Below, piece after piece: positions 27,001 through 39,000 of a stretch of 64,000 bases of DNA. The DNA is from an uncultured Elusimicrobia bacterium (GTDB taxonomy: Bacteria > Elusimicrobiota > Elusimicrobia > 2-01-FULL-59-12): contig OY969767.1 in NCBI GenBank assembly GCA_963702895.1, positions 64,001 through 128,000 of the forward strand, in the 5' to 3' direction. Position numbers: made by a program. Position 1 is the first letter of the stretch. Each line of letters begins with the position of its first letter.

Positions 27001-30000
27001 ATCCTCGCCGAACAAAGCTTCCTGGACACCATCCGCCATCTCAAAGAACAGATCAAAAAAATCGATCAGGCCTTGGATCAACTGATCTCAAACCACCCCA
27101 CCATTGGCCCCATGGTGAGCTTGCTGCTCACCATCCCTGGGGTGGGCCGACTCTTGACGGCCCATTTGATGGTCATCAGCCAAGGCTTTACGCGATCCCT
27201 GGAACCCCGCCGCATCGCCTCGTATTTGGGCATGTGCCCACTCGAACACTCCAGCGGAACTTCCGTGCGCAAGAATGCAAGCTCTCGCGGGATCGGTCCG
27301 GACATCATCCGCAAGCTATTGCACCTGGCAGCCCGATCCCTTCGCACACATCATCAGCAGTTCAGGCACTACTTTGAAAGAAAAGTACAAGCCGGAAAAG
27401 CCAAACGCTTGGCGCTCAACAACATTGCCAACAAACTCTTGCGCATTATCTGTGCCGTACTGCGCACAAAGTCACCGTATCTTGCTGACTATAGGTCAGT
27501 CAATCCTCGGATCCTAAAAAATGCTTGACCGAGGTCATAGAAATCGGGGTGACGGCACAAAAAAGTGCATCGAGTTCAGACGATGAGGCAAAATGAACCG
27601 AAGATCTCCGGTTAGCTTCGGCCGCAGCAGGGGGCACTCATGAGGAGTCTCTTAGGCGCTGATTTTATCTACAAATAAAGTCAAAATGAGTTCTTGTCAA
27701 ATGTACTGGAAATAGGGCAACGCCCCTTTCGTTGAATGTCTCTTAGGCCGCGACCTCCAGCTTCTCTCTTTCCACAAATAGTACTTCAACCAATTCCGGC
27801 TTTGCGATCGGCTTCCAGAACTGCGCTAAACGCTCAATGACCTTGTAGACGAATGCCACGCCTGTTCGGGATTTCTGGAACCGGCGCACGACTCGCGTCC
27901 GCAACCGCACTCCCGCGAAGACCGACTCAATCGGATTGCTCGTCTTCAAATGGACCCAGTGCTCCTTCGGAAAGTCGAAGTACCTCAGCAACGTGTCATG
28001 ATCCTTGCGCACACAAGCCGCAGCCTTCGGATAGCGAATTTCAAGATCCTCAGCCAACAAGGCCAACTGGTTCTCCGCGTCTTCGCGGCGCTCCGCCTGA
28101 TAGGCCACCCGCAGGCGATTGAGGACTTCATCCTGCTTAGCCTTCGGCACTTTATCCACGACGTTGCGCATCTTGTGCTTCCAACACCGTTGATCCTTCG
28201 CCGAGGGATACACCTCTGCCACCGCCTCCCAGAGCCCTCCGATCCCGTCGCCGATGACCAACAGCGGAGCAGGCATACCGCGCTCCGCGACCCCTCTCCA
28301 GATTTCCTTCCAGGAATCCCGGCTCTCCCGGTAGCCTTCCATCAGCGCGATCAGTTCCTTCTGGCCTTTCGCGTTGACGCCCACCAGAACCAGAAGCGCT
28401 GTGTTCTCTTTTTCCAGCCCCGCTTTTAAATACACGCCGTCTGCCCAGACATAGGCGTAACGCGTCTCCGATAGGTCCCGGCGACTGAACGTAGCCAGGT
28501 CCGACTGAAACTTCGCCGATAGACGCAGGATCGTGCTGGCTGATAAGGTGGCTCCATCCCCGATCAGTGCTCGCAACGCCGGCTCAAAGTCCCGACTCGA
28601 GAGTCCCTCCAGGTACAGCCGCCGGAATAACTCCTCGACCCCTTCCGTCCGCCGCTGGTAGGGCCGCAAGATGCTCGACTCAAACTCGCCTCCGTCCACC
28701 TGGGGCACCGATAGCTTCAGCCCCGCCCCCAACACCGTCACCTTCCGCTCCCGCGTTCCGTTCCGATAGCCTTTCTCCAGATTCTTCGCCCGTTCATAGC
28801 GCCGACGCTCTAAATACATCGTCACTTCTTCTTCCAGGGCCTCCACCAGCATCTTGCGCGCTCCTTCACGGGCCAGATAATCCACCATGCTCTCGCCTTT
28901 GTGCTGAGTCCCTTTCTCGTTTACAATGGTTTCCATAACGGCGTCTCCTTTTCGTTTATTGTCCGCTCGAACGGACAGGTTTGTGTGTTTCAACGAAAGG
29001 GTACGCCGTTTCTATTTCCTAAGGCAAATCCTTCCTTGCCTTAAAACCTATTTCCAGCACTTTTGATGGTAACTCGTCAAAATCGATGCATAAGACCTAG
29101 TTCCTTATGGGCCCTTTAGGACAAGAAAATTAGCCCTCCGATCTATTTAAGCTCAGGTTCAAATCCCGCATAATTTACTATCGGTTCGGTCGCCAGACGC
29201 CTGGCGACCGCGCACGGAATTCATCATGAACAAACGCCTCAAGCGTCTCATCGCGCTCCTCCTTGTTTTCTGCCTCGTCGCGGATCCCGCCACGGCCGCC
29301 GCCTGGGGAGCTTTCGCGACGCGCCGGCCGGCGCCCGCCGCCGCGCCAAGCCTGTTTGCCGAACAGGCCCTGACTGCATACTTAACCCAGCACCGGAGGC
29401 CCTCCTTCGGCGAATCCGCTCACCGTATTGATAAAGAAACGGGCCAGGCTCGTGATCCTTTACAAACAAAACCTGATTCCGCATCGAGCGCCCCGCTGGC
29501 GCGCTCCTTCCGCGGATCTGTTCGCACGACTGCATTATTGGTTTTGGCGCTGGCCGTAGGCGCCCTGACCAGCCCGGCGGAAGCCAATCCCATAATCGCG
29601 GCGATGAATCCTCCGGCGATTGCCGGCGCGATTGCCGCCGGGGCAGCGCAGAGCGGCCTCGGGACGATCGTTGTCCCCATGGCCCAGGCGCTCCAGGCCC
29701 AGGAGTCCCCGCTCGCCCCGCAGGCAGTCCAGGAACGAATCAAGACGCTGGCTGAGCAACTCCTCACCCATCCGGAAGCCCGGATGCGGATCGCGGCCGC
29801 TCGAGAGCTGGGCCGGATTTCCGACCCGGCGGCGATCGACAGCCTGATCCAAGGCATCAGCGACCCCGAGGGAAGGCGGCAATACAGCACGCACCTGGAA
29901 TTTGGGGTGAAGGTGGTAAAAGGTGGGCGTGATGCCGGGGTCGTGTCCTGGGCGATGGAAGGCCTCATCAAAATAGGAGATCCAGCAGCAGATGCTGTTT

Positions 30001-36000: not shown

Positions 36001-39000
36001 GAAATGTTGACATGCCGGAAATCTATACAGCCGAAGGGACCGCACTCATCACGCCCATAGAGGCCTTGGACTATATGGATCAGCACCGCCTCACGATCTA
36101 TCGCACCAGAGATCATGCCTATGTTTTCAAGTCCTCCGGCTTCGCGGCATCGCAGGGCGGCGCGTCGGGGACCCCGTTGTCACCGAAACCCTCAAAAACA
36201 TCCCCCCCTGCGGACGCTTCTCCCTCCCCATCGCTGCTCCGACGCCTCGCCGCCGCCGCTTAAGAACGGCTTGGCCGGGGGTTCTGGAAGTTCAGGCGGC
36301 GATTGAATTCGGAGGCGAGCCAGTCGGCCTGGCTTTTGTCGCGGAGCATCGCGAAGACGATGAGCGGCTTGCTGACTCTTCGTCGCAGCATGATCCCATA
36401 GGATGGATTCTGGTTGGTTTGCGCCATCACCGAGATGCCGGCCTCGAGAACCTCTCCCGGCGGCGCTTTCCAGGATTTCTGAAAACCCAGGAGCCGGTAC
36501 GTCAACACCACGCCGTCGGACCCCATGGTGAGGCGCACTTCGCCCGCCGCCGCCCACAGCAGCGCCAGCACCACGATCATCCCGAACAGGCCAGCCACCA
36601 GAGGAAAAATAAGCGGGGCTCCCGCTTTTGAGATCACCATGGCGACCGCGACCGTGAACGCCAACGACAGGAGGCATCCCAGGGCGCTGGCGGCCCCTCC
36701 CGGCGGAGCCAGGATGAACTGGGTGCCGCCCGGCACAGACACGATGCGGACCCGGGAAGGCGCTGGCGCCTCGCCCCGGCTGGCGGGCCGGATGAAGCCG
36801 TCGGGAAGCGTTTCACGCGGCTGGCTCGGGTCTTCCGGCAGGGTCCGGAAGACCGGCACCTCAAAGATCAGGTTGAGATCGGCGCCCGGCACGGCCGCCG
36901 ACACCCGCAGCCGCCAGATCACCTGGCGGTCCGCCGACTCGTCATTCCAGGGCTCGCACTCCGGCGGAATGGGGATCGACACGGGAACAGCCGTGAGCGC
37001 CTCCGGATAAGAAGGGACGGGGCCGGGCACGCGCGCGCCCGCTTCCCAGAGGATGTGCTCTTGCGTATCGTCGGAGCCGTGCGTGCGCCGCAGGCAGGAA
37101 AGTTTCACTTCAAAGCCGGCTGCCGGGTCAAGCCGCGGCGGGATCAGCACCACGCCCTTGAGGCTGCCGCCGATGGCCGCGGGCGCCGCGCTCATGTGAA
37201 AGACGCACCGGCGGAACCGGAGCCAGCGCAGCGTCTGCGCGAGCGCCCAATACAGCAGCCCCGCGCCAAAGAGCGGAAAAATAAGAATGAGCAAAATCCG
37301 CCAGTCGCCCTTTTGCGCATACTCCCGGACCGCCAGAACGGCTCCCGCCAGTGCGGCCGCATTCCAGAAGAGGGAAAACCCCGTGATGAACAACAGGCCG
37401 GCTTCTCCTTTGGCCGGAAGCACGCCGCGGGCAAAGTCATCCCGCCACAGCCAGGGGCGGCCGGGGTTGGCGGCGCGCTGTTCAGCGCGCCGGCGCTCCT
37501 CGCGCCGGCTGTAGAGGAGAAGCGCCGCCAACCCGCACGGAAAGGCGAGGAAGACGACGCCGAAAGCCGCAAGGGCCAGCCCCTGCGGCCACTGTCCCTT
37601 CACCGCCAGGCCTATGCCTATCACGACCGCCGCCAGGCCCGCCAGAAGAAAAGGGACAAGAAAAAAGGATAGGCCGATGGGGGCTCTCCGCCACCAACCC
37701 CGGACGCGATCGGTCGCCATGGCCCAATCCTATACGGCATGGCTCATTTTGGCAATGGCGAATGGAGGAGGAATGGCCGCGCTTAGGCAGCCTGCAAGAG
37801 GCCGGGATGGGGCAAGGCGCCAGACGCGCTCGCCTGAGGCCTCCGGAGAAACCGGAACAACCCATACATGGCCACGGCGCTGATCGCCGAGATGAGGATC
37901 GGCCCGGGACCAGCCTGGAGAAGAATGGATCCGCCCAAGAGGTCTATCCGTTCGCCATACGAGCCGAGGCTCGCTGGATGGGCCGCCTCCACGCTTCGAT
38001 AGAGAAAGCTGGCGAAGTTCTTCATCAAGAAGGAATTGAGAAGCAGCAGCGGCAAGGCGCTGAAGGTGGTGCTTGTCCAGCTTCCTTGTCCAGCCTCCGG
38101 CAGGGTGTCCCACTCCACGTCAATGCCGTCCGGAGGCAGCTGCGTGAAGGTGATTCGAAATCCACCCTCGGGGACCTTAGACACCTTGAATTGAAAGTGC
38201 ATCGACGGGAGATCTCGATCCCCGTCAACGTTATCGTCCGCACCGGACGACCCGATGCTGACGACCTGGTCAAACTCAACCTTCACAGGCGATGTGCCTT
38301 CGACAAACCACAGCCGGCCTCCACGCTGATAGAGCCTGAAACGAAATCCTCGCGTGTCGATCCGGATATTATTTCCGAAATGAACCATGACGGGATCGAC
38401 GTTTTCGCCGGGCGGCGCTTGACGCGTTGGAGCGCCTAGACGCGCCAGGCAAATACCCTTCGCCCAATACAACCTCTTATGAGGACCCATCCCAAGATAT
38501 CCTGCACCCGCTGCCCTCAACGCCAAATCCTTCGGAATATGGTCAACATCCTGGGAGTGCATGGAGCGCCTTACGGGAACGGCGGCCCCCTGCGGCCCCG
38601 ATTCCAATCCGAGGATCAGTCGGTTCTGCTCCAAGAGATCCGTGAGAAAGCTCGGAGCGTGGACAAGCTCAAAGGACCCCGAGCTGACCCTTTCAACGGC
38701 CAGGGTGACCCGTCTGGAAAACGACAGCAATCTCGACGCTCGATCGTCAGAAGGCCAAAACCGGTTGACGTTTCGTGCGTCCGCGTCATCCGTCCCCTCG
38801 AAGAGGACCTTTTTTCCATCGGGCGTCATTTTCTCTATTTCTCGAAAGAGGCGCTCCGGAAGAATCGCCACCCTGTTTGAATCAGGCAATCTGACCGCGA
38901 CCGCGGAAGCAAGGGATTCTCCGTACAAAGCCAGCAGGTGATGCTGGCCAACCGGGATGTCCGTCATCTGAGGTAGGACCAGATGCTCCAGCCCTTCATG

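What a model noticed while it worked through the whole genome (the two positions that open the first line are those of the whole stretch)
29226..36263. A family-wide bipartite tag: 20+ unrelated mosaic proteins share a 60-aa leader (LLLVPCLxxDP...FxxQAL) and a basic ssrA- [...]
At least 14 genes (535 to 3,506 aa; e.g. g00047, 49, 165, 237, 327, 377, 670, 953, 1020, 1239, 1244, 2030) with mutually unrelated bodies start with one conserved leader (basic n-region, LLLVPCLxxDP, then FxxQAL). All end in a basic, low-complexity tail closing in AA/SA like the tmRNA degron, and the EreA-headed giants and g00658, g01241, g01423 end in the same kind of tail (AA/SA/TA/NA). Leader and tail act as a paired tag (export signal plus degron or C-terminal secretion signal) on an expanded, lineage-specific cargo family.
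Evidence so far: Termini in calls 92, 94, 95; bodies do not align with each other apart from the known head domain. Leader HMM finds 5-32 copies in 9 of 10 other family genomes and none in the 119 sampled phylum genomes outside the family. Of 40 relatives' hits chosen by the leader alone, 30 are complete ORFs and 22 end in [AS]A (most of the rest in AS/SS/GA), against 108 of 2,349 own proteins. Two further leaders (1409024, 1608903) are cut from their genes by frameshifts. The same genes share an operator. Passages of both giant-protein preprints read for 'C-terminal', 'signal peptide', 'degron' show no such tag; search 96 empty.
(Added by a program. Inside this text positions count along the whole contig: contig position 64,001 is position 1 of the stretch shown here. 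"Call 12" and the like, gene names such as g00115 and contig names such as C1 are that model's own, and its searches are not shown. The text may have been shortened before it was handed on; [...] marks where a part breaks off. The agent that wrote the report below was given it as the finding of a first reader that could run no searches.)

Follow-up and report, generated by a model that had tools for sequence, protein, structure and literature searches.

The report
Two-ended address tag on mosaic proteins
Dozens of otherwise unrelated large proteins in a group of uncultured bacteria share the same export-type start and the same short alanine-ending tail, and the tail travels through evolution with a second, little-studied membrane protease, which points to an undescribed way of handling giant exported proteins.

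Summary
The tag is real. The window gene, a second gene 1.5 kb away and about 13 more genes of this Elusimicrobiota genome share a promoter, a cleavable signal peptide plus FxxQA-hydrophobic motif, and a tail, around unrelated bodies. In relatives picked by the leader alone, 54 of 67 complete proteins end in AA/SA (background 70 of 2,067). The tail is sharper than first read: hydrophobic-x-x-[A/S]-A-COOH, not the ssrA LAA. The leader is confined to one family, but the tail also ends the giant proteins of 10 other Elusimicrobiota families and of Omnitrophota. New link: a second, deeply diverged FtsH with a partner lipoprotein co-occurs with, and often sits beside, these giants (48 of 51 Elusimicrobiota, 51 of 52 Omnitrophota carriers). 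Best reading: Sec entry plus a sorting motif in front, a handle for that FtsH module behind, on fast-turning cargo probably aimed at other cells. No function is shown. This scan noted a similar leader-and-tail family, and the FtsH-lipoprotein pair, separately in Omnitrophota; I found no paper on either.

The parts
29108..29174 (+). Shared promoter-operator cassette: TGGGCC..GGnC box, TTAGCC-n-CG-n-CTATT box, -10-like hexamer
   Evidence: (score 37.8)
29226..36263 (+). 2,345-aa tagged mosaic protein (HEAT 173-215, TPR about 800-970; rest without Pfam match)
29226..29297 (+). Signal peptidase I type signal peptide, residues 1-24, with the conserved DP-x-x-A end (cleavage predicted, not shown)
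29355..29372 (+). FxxQAL motif (residues 44-49), about 20 residues into the predicted mature chain
36171..36263 (+). Pro/Ser-rich basic tail ending hydrophobic-x-x-A-A and the stop codon
37783..42195 (-). Second tagged protein, 1,470 aa from the leader ATG, no Pfam match, internal duplication, C-terminal hydrophobic helix and tail ending LLQAA
42040..42195 (-). Leader of the second protein (signal peptide plus LDQEAL variant)
42265..42331 (-). Second copy of the promoter-operator cassette
   Evidence: (score 44.4)

Best explanation
The two ends are the address labels of a dedicated pathway for giant, exported, multi-enzyme proteins. SHOWN (sequence level): a cassette of promoter + signal peptide + FxxQA-hydrophobic motif is copied onto new bodies; the bodies share almost nothing; the C-terminal hydrophobic-x-x-[A/S]-A tail is kept by selection on the protein and is inherited from the older head-domain giants of Elusimicrobiota and Omnitrophota; a second FtsH (own clade, no periplasmic domain, intact protease and pore residues) with a partner lipoprotein co-occurs with these giants. 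INFERRED: (1) the signal peptide sends the chain into Sec and is cut after DP-x-x-A (about 0.8); (2) FxxQAL is a sorting motif that replaces the 430-residue head domain in this family (about 0.5); (3) the free non-polar tail is the grip by which the second FtsH engages the chain from the cytoplasm, to clear stalled or misdelivered precursors or to trim the anchor (about 0.5); (4) the cargo acts in another cell's cytoplasm, delivered in this family with the co-regulated Tad-like pilus (about 0.5).
For: Pairing: 54 of 67 complete relatives' proteins chosen by the leader alone end AA/SA and 40 of 67 carry the strict motif, against 70 and 18 of 2,067 other proteins and 5 and 1 of 100 signal-peptide-like controls; 29 of 39 further proteins of 400 aa or more. 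Bodies: 12 of 2,628 pairs share any stretch, none over 60%. DNA likeness between paralogs spans promoter and leader and never passes 182 nt after the start; 3' ends share almost no DNA and use all four Ala codons and all three stops. Signal peptidase I pattern in 172 of 207 leaders. Tail on head giants: 29 of 36 end in A, 32 of 36 hydrophobic at -5; Omnitrophota 18 of 18 have S/A at -2, 12 end in A. Second FtsH: 38 kb from the giants, next to the Tad genes; HExxH, third zinc ligand and FVG loop kept, second pore loop changed; separate clade, SH-aLRT 100 in a quick tree. Co-occurrence: 45 of 51 head-positive Elusimicrobiota genomes have it and 48 of 51 have its lipoprotein, against 11 of 100 head-negative genomes for the lipoprotein; in Omnitrophota 51 of 52 head-positive genomes have it and 6 of the 7 without it lack the head. 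A giant lies between the two genes in G053 and right behind them in G158. FtsH takes substrates by C-terminal sequences and needs an unstructured end (PMC9601784, passages). Cargo: DNA-binding helices, adenylate kinase, methyltransferases, sugar kinases, a protein kinase; 8 of 24 such domains have no hydrophobic helix between leader and domain even at a lenient cut-off. The giant-locus Tad ATPase is in 8 of 10 family genomes and not found in the one 95%-complete genome without leaders.
Against: No binding, cleavage, expression or localisation is shown. G008 keeps the second FtsH and the lipoprotein with no leader or head found; 23 of 100 head-negative Elusimicrobiota genomes have the second FtsH, 12 of them without the lipoprotein. 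Kin are not independent, so the Fisher values overstate. The co-occurrence was measured with the head domain, not with the tail itself. The operator is not in front of the second FtsH. FtsH works on the cytoplasmic side and cannot see the tail of a fully exported chain; 11 of 73 members have no predicted helix beyond the leader, and helix parity is 37 even to 36 odd (crude hydropathy only). A Tad CpaB query matches 125 of 151 genomes, including 45 without giants, and misses several giant-rich families, so Tad does not track the giants across the phylum. AA is the commonest ending of this proteome (77 of 2,131).
Confidence: 0.45

Rival explanations
1. The tail is a secretion or translocation signal, not a protease handle: after Sec export it is read outside the producer's cytoplasm, by a periplasmic receptor (the lipoprotein, the Tad secretin) or by an AAA+ motor of the target cell that pulls the cargo in, as FtsH of the target does for nuclease colicins.
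For: The tail is a conserved amphipathic-looking stretch of about 10 residues in other families and drifts by lineage (AA/AG, QA/NA/SA, SL/SV), as expected of a receptor ligand. Members without helices would carry the tail into the periplasm. The scan's Omnitrophota note likened its case to type IX cargo (unchecked). FtsH-dependent colicin entry: PMC4026351, abstract.
Against: No VirB4 or VirD4 family match in the 98%-complete genome. Where a helix lies near the end, basic residues mostly follow it (19 of 24 with at least three K/R after, or more after than before by two; read), which points to a cytoplasmic tail. It does not explain the link to the second FtsH.
Confidence: 0.25
2. The tail is a generic ssrA-type degron read by the housekeeping ClpXP, FtsH or tail-specific protease, and the second FtsH is only a passenger of the same lifestyle locus.
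For: Small non-polar C-termini are read by several proteases (PMC9382460, passages). The genome has single ClpX, ClpP, Lon, canonical FtsH and CtpA genes by motif, and AA endings are common on small unstable-looking proteins.
Against: 0 of 21 own and 1 of 67 relatives' tails end LAA; 21 of 21 own tails have a hydrophobic -5 against 22 of 87 other small-A enders; 6 of 18 Omnitrophota tails end in L, V or M; the second FtsH tracks the giants in two phyla.
Confidence: 0.15
3. The proteins are the cell's own membrane-tethered enzyme strings: the leader and helix pairs hold all domains in the producer's cytoplasm, and the tail sets their turnover; nothing is delivered to another cell.
For: Domains are of cytoplasmic type; 80 of 168 gaps between predicted helices are 60 aa or less, as in hairpins, and 10 of 24 domains follow an odd number of helices. 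Preprint 10.64898/2026.06.07.730766 reports mostly membrane-anchored topologies for the Omnitrophota giants (abstract and passages).
Against: No full-length orthologs even within a genus, 1,063 leader-bearing clusters at 50% identity, frequent broken copies and co-regulation with a pilus gene fit an arms race better than housekeeping; the leader has a cleavage-site pattern.
Confidence: 0.15

Closest known systems
Giant multi-enzyme signal-peptide + membrane proteins of Omnitrophota and Elusimicrobiota (Archaeovorins, bioRxiv 10.1101/2023.11.21.568195; class 1 of bioRxiv 10.64898/2026.06.07.730766)
   Same: Mosaic of metabolic, signalling and repeat domains, signal peptide, helices, sequence-unique bodies, secretion/pilus genes nearby; the head-domain giants here belong with them and share the tail.
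   Different: The passages and sections read describe no conserved leader motif, no C-terminal motif and no FtsH; the leader family is smaller (300-3,500 aa), has no head domain and is confined to one family.
ssrA tag and other non-polar C-terminal degrons of ClpXP, FtsH and Tsp
   Same: Free C-terminus of small non-polar residues after a flexible stretch (PMC9382460, PMC9601784; passages).
   Different: Gene-encoded, hydrophobic at -5, not LAA, basic rather than acidic, paired with an export leader, and linked to a separate FtsH clade.
Terminal reassortment of type III / type IV effectors (as described in PMC5675462, passages)
   Same: New genes made by joining a ready secretion signal to unrelated bodies; here promoter and leader move as one DNA unit.
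   Different: Both ends are fixed, the front end is a Sec signal peptide, and no VirB4/VirD4 was found.
Type IX secretion cargo (Sec signal + C-terminal domain; features recalled)
   Same: Two-ended addressing of unrelated cargo.
   Different: The tail here is a 5-10 residue motif without a folded Ig-like domain (no Pfam match); this genome has a separate cargo class with such a domain.
YSIRK/GXXS signal peptides of staphylococci (PMC5962339, abstract)
   Same: A Sec signal peptide with extra conserved residues shared by unrelated large proteins and used for routing.
   Different: Different motif, Gram-positive septal routing, sortase anchor instead of a free alanine tail.

Membership tests
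Sec / signal peptidase I signal peptide | Basic n-region, hydrophobic h-region, small residues at -3 and -1 | tested here: met
   Arg in 93% at one n-region position; small-x-small at DP+2/DP+4 in 172 of 207 anchored leaders (of 241 collected)
Sec / signal peptidase I signal peptide | Cleavage and export of the chain | not testable with these tools
   No proteomics; no signal-peptide predictor on the script machine
Lipoprotein signal peptide | Invariant Cys in a lipobox at the end of the h-region | tested here: not met
   Cys in 80%, preceded by Pro and followed by more hydrophobic residues; lipobox pattern in 19 of 207 (pattern recalled)
Tat signal peptide | Twin-arginine motif | tested here: not met
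   0 of 207 (pattern recalled)
ssrA-type ClpX degron | C-terminal LAA | tested here: not met
   LAA in 0 of 21 own and 1 of 67 relatives' tails; the genome's tmRNA tag does end LAA
ssrA-type ClpX degron | Small non-polar last two residues with a free carboxyl end | tested here: met
   54 of 67 end AA/SA, 62 of 67 small-small
ssrA-type ClpX degron | Confers degradation on a reporter | not testable with these tools
   Needs an assay
Type IV secretion C-terminal signal | VirB4 and coupling protein in the genome | tested here: not met
   PF03135 and PF02534: no match in G000, 98% complete
Type IX secretion cargo | Folded C-terminal sorting domain of about 70-80 residues | tested here: not met
   No such Pfam match in 68 family proteins scanned, while a non-family protein of the Tad locus does match weakly
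Sortase-type tripartite sorting signals | Motif + membrane helix + basic cluster at every C-terminus | tested here: not met
   A helix in the last 90 residues in only 24 of 73; the conserved part is the extreme end
FtsH (M41) protease, for the second paralog | N-terminal helices, AAA domain with pore loop, HExxH and third zinc ligand | tested here: met
   Pfam AAA + Peptidase_M41; HExxH in 110 of 110 single-module homologs, FVG and Asp in the consensus
FtsH (M41) protease, for the second paralog | Periplasmic domain between the two helices, as in E. coli FtsH | tested here: not met
   Walker A at about residue 130-136 against 195-224 in the canonical copies
Omnitrophota-type giant multi-enzyme proteins | Signal peptide, many unrelated enzyme domains, helices, sequence-unique bodies | tested here: met
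   against section 8 of 10.64898/2026.06.07.730766
Omnitrophota-type giant multi-enzyme proteins | Length of 10,000 residues or more (the preprint's cut-off) | tested here: not met
   Leader family 302-3,506 aa among complete tagged members; only one own head giant (12,887 aa) passes
Secreted effectors | Transfer into another cell through a defined machine | not testable with these tools
   Host unknown; only indirect signs

The most novel reading that the evidence does not exclude
An undescribed protein delivery pathway of host-associated Elusimicrobiota and Omnitrophota: cargo is licensed by a front cassette and an alanine tail, and a dedicated FtsH-lipoprotein machine reads the tail to process outgoing cargo and to destroy any tagged protein that ends up in the producer's own cytoplasm, a tag-based universal self-protection that would replace one immunity gene per effector and explain why cargo-free relatives keep the protease.
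Probability: 0.25. Interest if true: 0.9.

Novelty: new variant of a known kind. Interest (0 to 1): 0.76.

Why it matters
How Omnitrophota and Elusimicrobiota make and use proteins of thousands to over 100,000 residues is an open question, and those proteins are too large to study. The tag reduces the problem to a 55-residue leader, a 5-10 residue tail, one 546-residue protease and one 260-residue lipoprotein, all of which can be expressed and assayed; natural mini-members of 172-450 residues exist. The tail also gives a quick test of whether a predicted giant gene is complete.

Tried and rejected
Leader and tail against NCBIfam: no relevant family; leader in the ESM Atlas: no usable hit, which shows neither absence nor novelty. 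FxxQAL as a leftover of the region behind the head domain: not found there in 18 head or giant proteins. Segment after QAL as a second membrane helix: strong enough in only 4 of 66. Tail as a DNA repeat: rejected. Lipoprotein fold: confident model (pLDDT 89.5), no Foldseek match at E<=0.001 and best Z 7.4, a common small alpha/beta arrangement, inconclusive. Operator pattern search in G008: uninformative, the positive control also gave 0. Sequencing runs: one DNA holder with a small share, no RNA holder listed, so the two broken genes could not be checked against reads. Tad CpaB as a phylum-wide partner: does not track the giants. Literature searches for the tag or the FtsH link: 0 papers; 0 papers; supplements of the two bioRxiv preprints were not seen and could hold motif or neighbourhood tables.
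Full report
OBSERVATION. The window gene (29226-36263, +, 2,345 aa) begins with the leader and ends in a Pro/Ser-rich basic tail closing in four alanines; a second member lies 1.5 kb away on the other strand (37783-42195). 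The genome is one 2.72-Mb contig, 98% complete; earlier notes and the names on homologs place it in Elusimicrobiota. A leader HMM seeded from seven leader look-alikes found 11 places, against a best reversed decoy of 11.5 bits; the 9 full-length ORFs all end AA or SA. I added four genes from lists of long or AA-ending ORFs; two of them are recovered by a larger model, two (contig 1648269, 1646800) are not and remain weak. With six head-domain or giant genes this gives 21.

INDEPENDENT TEST OF THE PAIRING. The leader model matched 9 of 10 other family genomes with 4-37 places each, and 0 of 149 sampled phylum genomes outside the family. Of 182 matches in relatives, 137 were listed; I took the first 127, dropped most of those predicted to run off a contig start and fetched 80 regions holding 90 matches. 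71 ORFs were complete, 67 of at least 200 aa; 54 of 67 end AA/SA, 62 end small-small, 46 have a hydrophobic residue at -5. Two of the five failures contain scaffold gaps. Background from my own gene calls (2,131 genes, simple dicodon caller): 70 of 2,067 end AA/SA, 18 carry the strict motif; among 100 signal-peptide-like proteins 5 and 1; among 42 other proteins of 1,000 aa or more 1 and 0. A profile search of 1.84 billion representatives gave 1,063 clusters; the best 150 match at or near the N-terminus; 29 of the 39 new ones of 400 aa or more end AA/SA, while 1 of 83 under 200 aa does (completeness unknown, the short ones are probably cut by contig ends).

ANATOMY. Leader: an Arg, a hydrophobic core with Pro-Cys, then DP-x-x-A, which fits the signal peptidase I rule in 172 of 207; F-x-x-[QE]-A-hydrophobic follows 22-30 residues after DP in 201 of 207; no twin arginine, no consistent lipobox. 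Tail: hydrophobic at -5 in 21 of 21 own members against 22 of 87 other proteins with similar last two residues; -3 is not Leu; the tmRNA tag of this genome is acidic and ends LAA. Bodies: among 73 complete tagged proteins only 12 of 2,628 pairs share a stretch and none shares 60%. Pfam finds scattered DNA-binding helices, adenylate kinase, methyltransferases, PfkB, RmlD, phosphoglycerate mutase, receiver, DnaJ, HEAT, TPR and WD40 domains, and nothing in 30 of 53 relatives' proteins. A two-box operator with a -10-like hexamer scores 18 or more before 10 of 15 leader genes, 5 of 6 giants and a pilin-like gene, but not before the second FtsH; 28 sites genome-wide against 3 in a one-strand decoy. 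DNA likeness between paralogs covers promoter and leader and ends by 182 nt after the start; 3' ends share almost no DNA. So the front is a copied cassette and the tail is kept on the protein level. One own gene is broken next to a run of eight C, another by two in-frame stops.

THE TAIL IS OLDER THAN THE LEADER. The head domain occurs in 51 of 151 Elusimicrobiota and 52 of 61 Omnitrophota genomes sampled. I fetched the ends of 39 head proteins chosen for length and spread; of 36 with a stop (33 from ten other families), 29 end in A, 3 in G, and 32 are hydrophobic at -5. Of 20 Omnitrophota ends, 18 had a stop: all have S or A at -2, 12 end in A, 6 in L, V or M. 27 of 35 further head proteins on roomy contigs end small-small. 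The leader model also touches the signal peptides of two head giants, while FxxQAL is not found behind the head: the leader looks like a family-specific replacement for the head.

A CANDIDATE READER. The Tad/giant locus holds a second FtsH (contig 711029-712669) beside the canonical one. It lacks the periplasmic domain, keeps HExxH, the third zinc ligand and the FVG loop, has its own second pore loop and forms a separate clade (quick tree, 31 rows). It is in 11 of 11 family genomes, 68 of 151 phylum genomes (counted as matches at E below 1e-110) and 54 of 61 Omnitrophota (one split), almost always beside a canonical copy. The next gene encodes a lipoprotein-like protein of no known family. Of 51 head-positive Elusimicrobiota genomes 45 have the FtsH and 48 the lipoprotein; of 100 head-negative ones 23 and 11. 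In family f21 the same 2 of 7 genomes have all three. In Omnitrophota 51 of 52 head-positive genomes have the FtsH, and 6 of the 7 without it lack the head (completeness figures not shown for these). A giant sits between the two genes in G053 and right behind them in G158. Against: G008 keeps both genes without any leader or head found; kin are not independent; the operator does not cover the FtsH.

WHERE THE CARGO GOES. 8 of 24 cytoplasm-type domains have no hydrophobic helix between leader and domain at a lenient cut-off, 11 at a stricter one; 10 follow an odd number. If the signal peptide is cut, the former leave the producer's cytoplasm, where they would lack ATP, SAM or DNA (inference from established biochemistry). 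With the lack of orthologs, the copy number and the shared operator, this favours delivery to another cell. The giant-locus Tad ATPase is in 8 of 10 family genomes, not found in G008 (95% complete) or G006 (73%), but a CpaB query does not track the giants across the phylum. No VirB4 or VirD4 was found. The hydropathy method is crude and helix parity is uninformative, so an own-cytoplasm reading is not excluded.

MECHANISM. Most likely the front cassette gives timing, Sec entry and a sorting motif, and the tail is the grip for the second FtsH module, which clears or trims chains whose end is still in the cytoplasm. FtsH is known to take substrates by terminal sequences on the cytoplasmic side (PMC9601784, passages), and ssrA-like ends are read by several proteases (PMC9382460, passages). 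It pulls towards its own chamber, so it would not be an export motor (recalled). Rivals are a sorting signal read outside the cytoplasm, perhaps by the target cell's own motor as for nuclease colicins (PMC4026351, abstract), a generic degron, and own-cell enzyme strings.

KNOWN WORK. Preprint 10.1101/2023.11.21.568195 (passages; section 11) and preprint 10.64898/2026.06.07.730766 (abstract, passages, section 8) describe the giants and their secretion/pilus neighbours; 'FtsH' does not occur in the first, 'motif' and 'ClpX' not in the second, and no shared tail appears in what I read. PMC11573180 (passages) only notes that Elusimicrobiota are rich in huge proteins. Searches found nothing on the tag or the FtsH link; preprint supplements were not seen. 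Terminal reassortment is cited from PMC5675462 (passages), YSIRK signals from PMC5962339 (abstract); the Myxococcus Tad-like killing system was seen only as a listing (PMC8460266). Within this scan, an Omnitrophota family with shared leader and Ala tail (e1-4720657) and the Omnitrophota FtsH-lipoprotein pair (e1-1042409) were noted separately; my counts agree with both, and add that a canonical FtsH is present alongside.

VERDICT. Real and well above chance; an undescribed two-ended signal on a known class of proteins, with a concrete and testable candidate reader. Function untested. Interest 0.76.

Noticed in passing
window 37783-42195 (-): The second tagged protein carries an internal duplication of roughly 400 residues, starting with a near-identical hydrophobic block.
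   Followed up: no
window 26476-28993: An IS110-type and a Mutator/IS256-type transposase lie directly upstream of the window gene; copies of these two elements lie within 300 bp of 4 of 15 family loci.
   Followed up: partly
L130:9470-11631 (contig 719467-721631): The Tad ATPase lies in a 555-aa open frame here but in 716-735-aa frames in seven relatives: a MinD-like/ATPase fusion that seems split in this assembly.
   Followed up: no
contig about 2,190,000-2,232,000 of G000: A tandem run of about a dozen 950-1,650-aa secreted-looking proteins ends in a shared type IX-like C-terminal domain, a second cargo class with its own tail.
   Followed up: no
proteins P0031, P0032, P0051, P0077-P0079, P0087: Relatives of the second FtsH with doubled AAA or AAA-protease modules (830-940 aa), one named as Omnitrophica.
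   Followed up: partly
contig 272127, 431625, 2244650, 2250833 of G000: The operator also precedes four 310-343-aa secreted or lipoprotein-like genes without the tag, two with the same C-terminal end.
   Followed up: no
protein P0267: A 172-residue minimal member: leader, a hydrophobic stretch and the tail, with no cargo domain.
   Followed up: no
L130:3667-4377 and L129:17349-19277: A LuxR-type response regulator follows the FtsH-lipoprotein pair and a histidine kinase precedes it; candidates for the operator's regulator.
   Followed up: no
L154-L163, L167: In families with the second FtsH but no lipoprotein or head domain, the FtsH gene mostly lies next to a TadG-like gene.
   Followed up: partly
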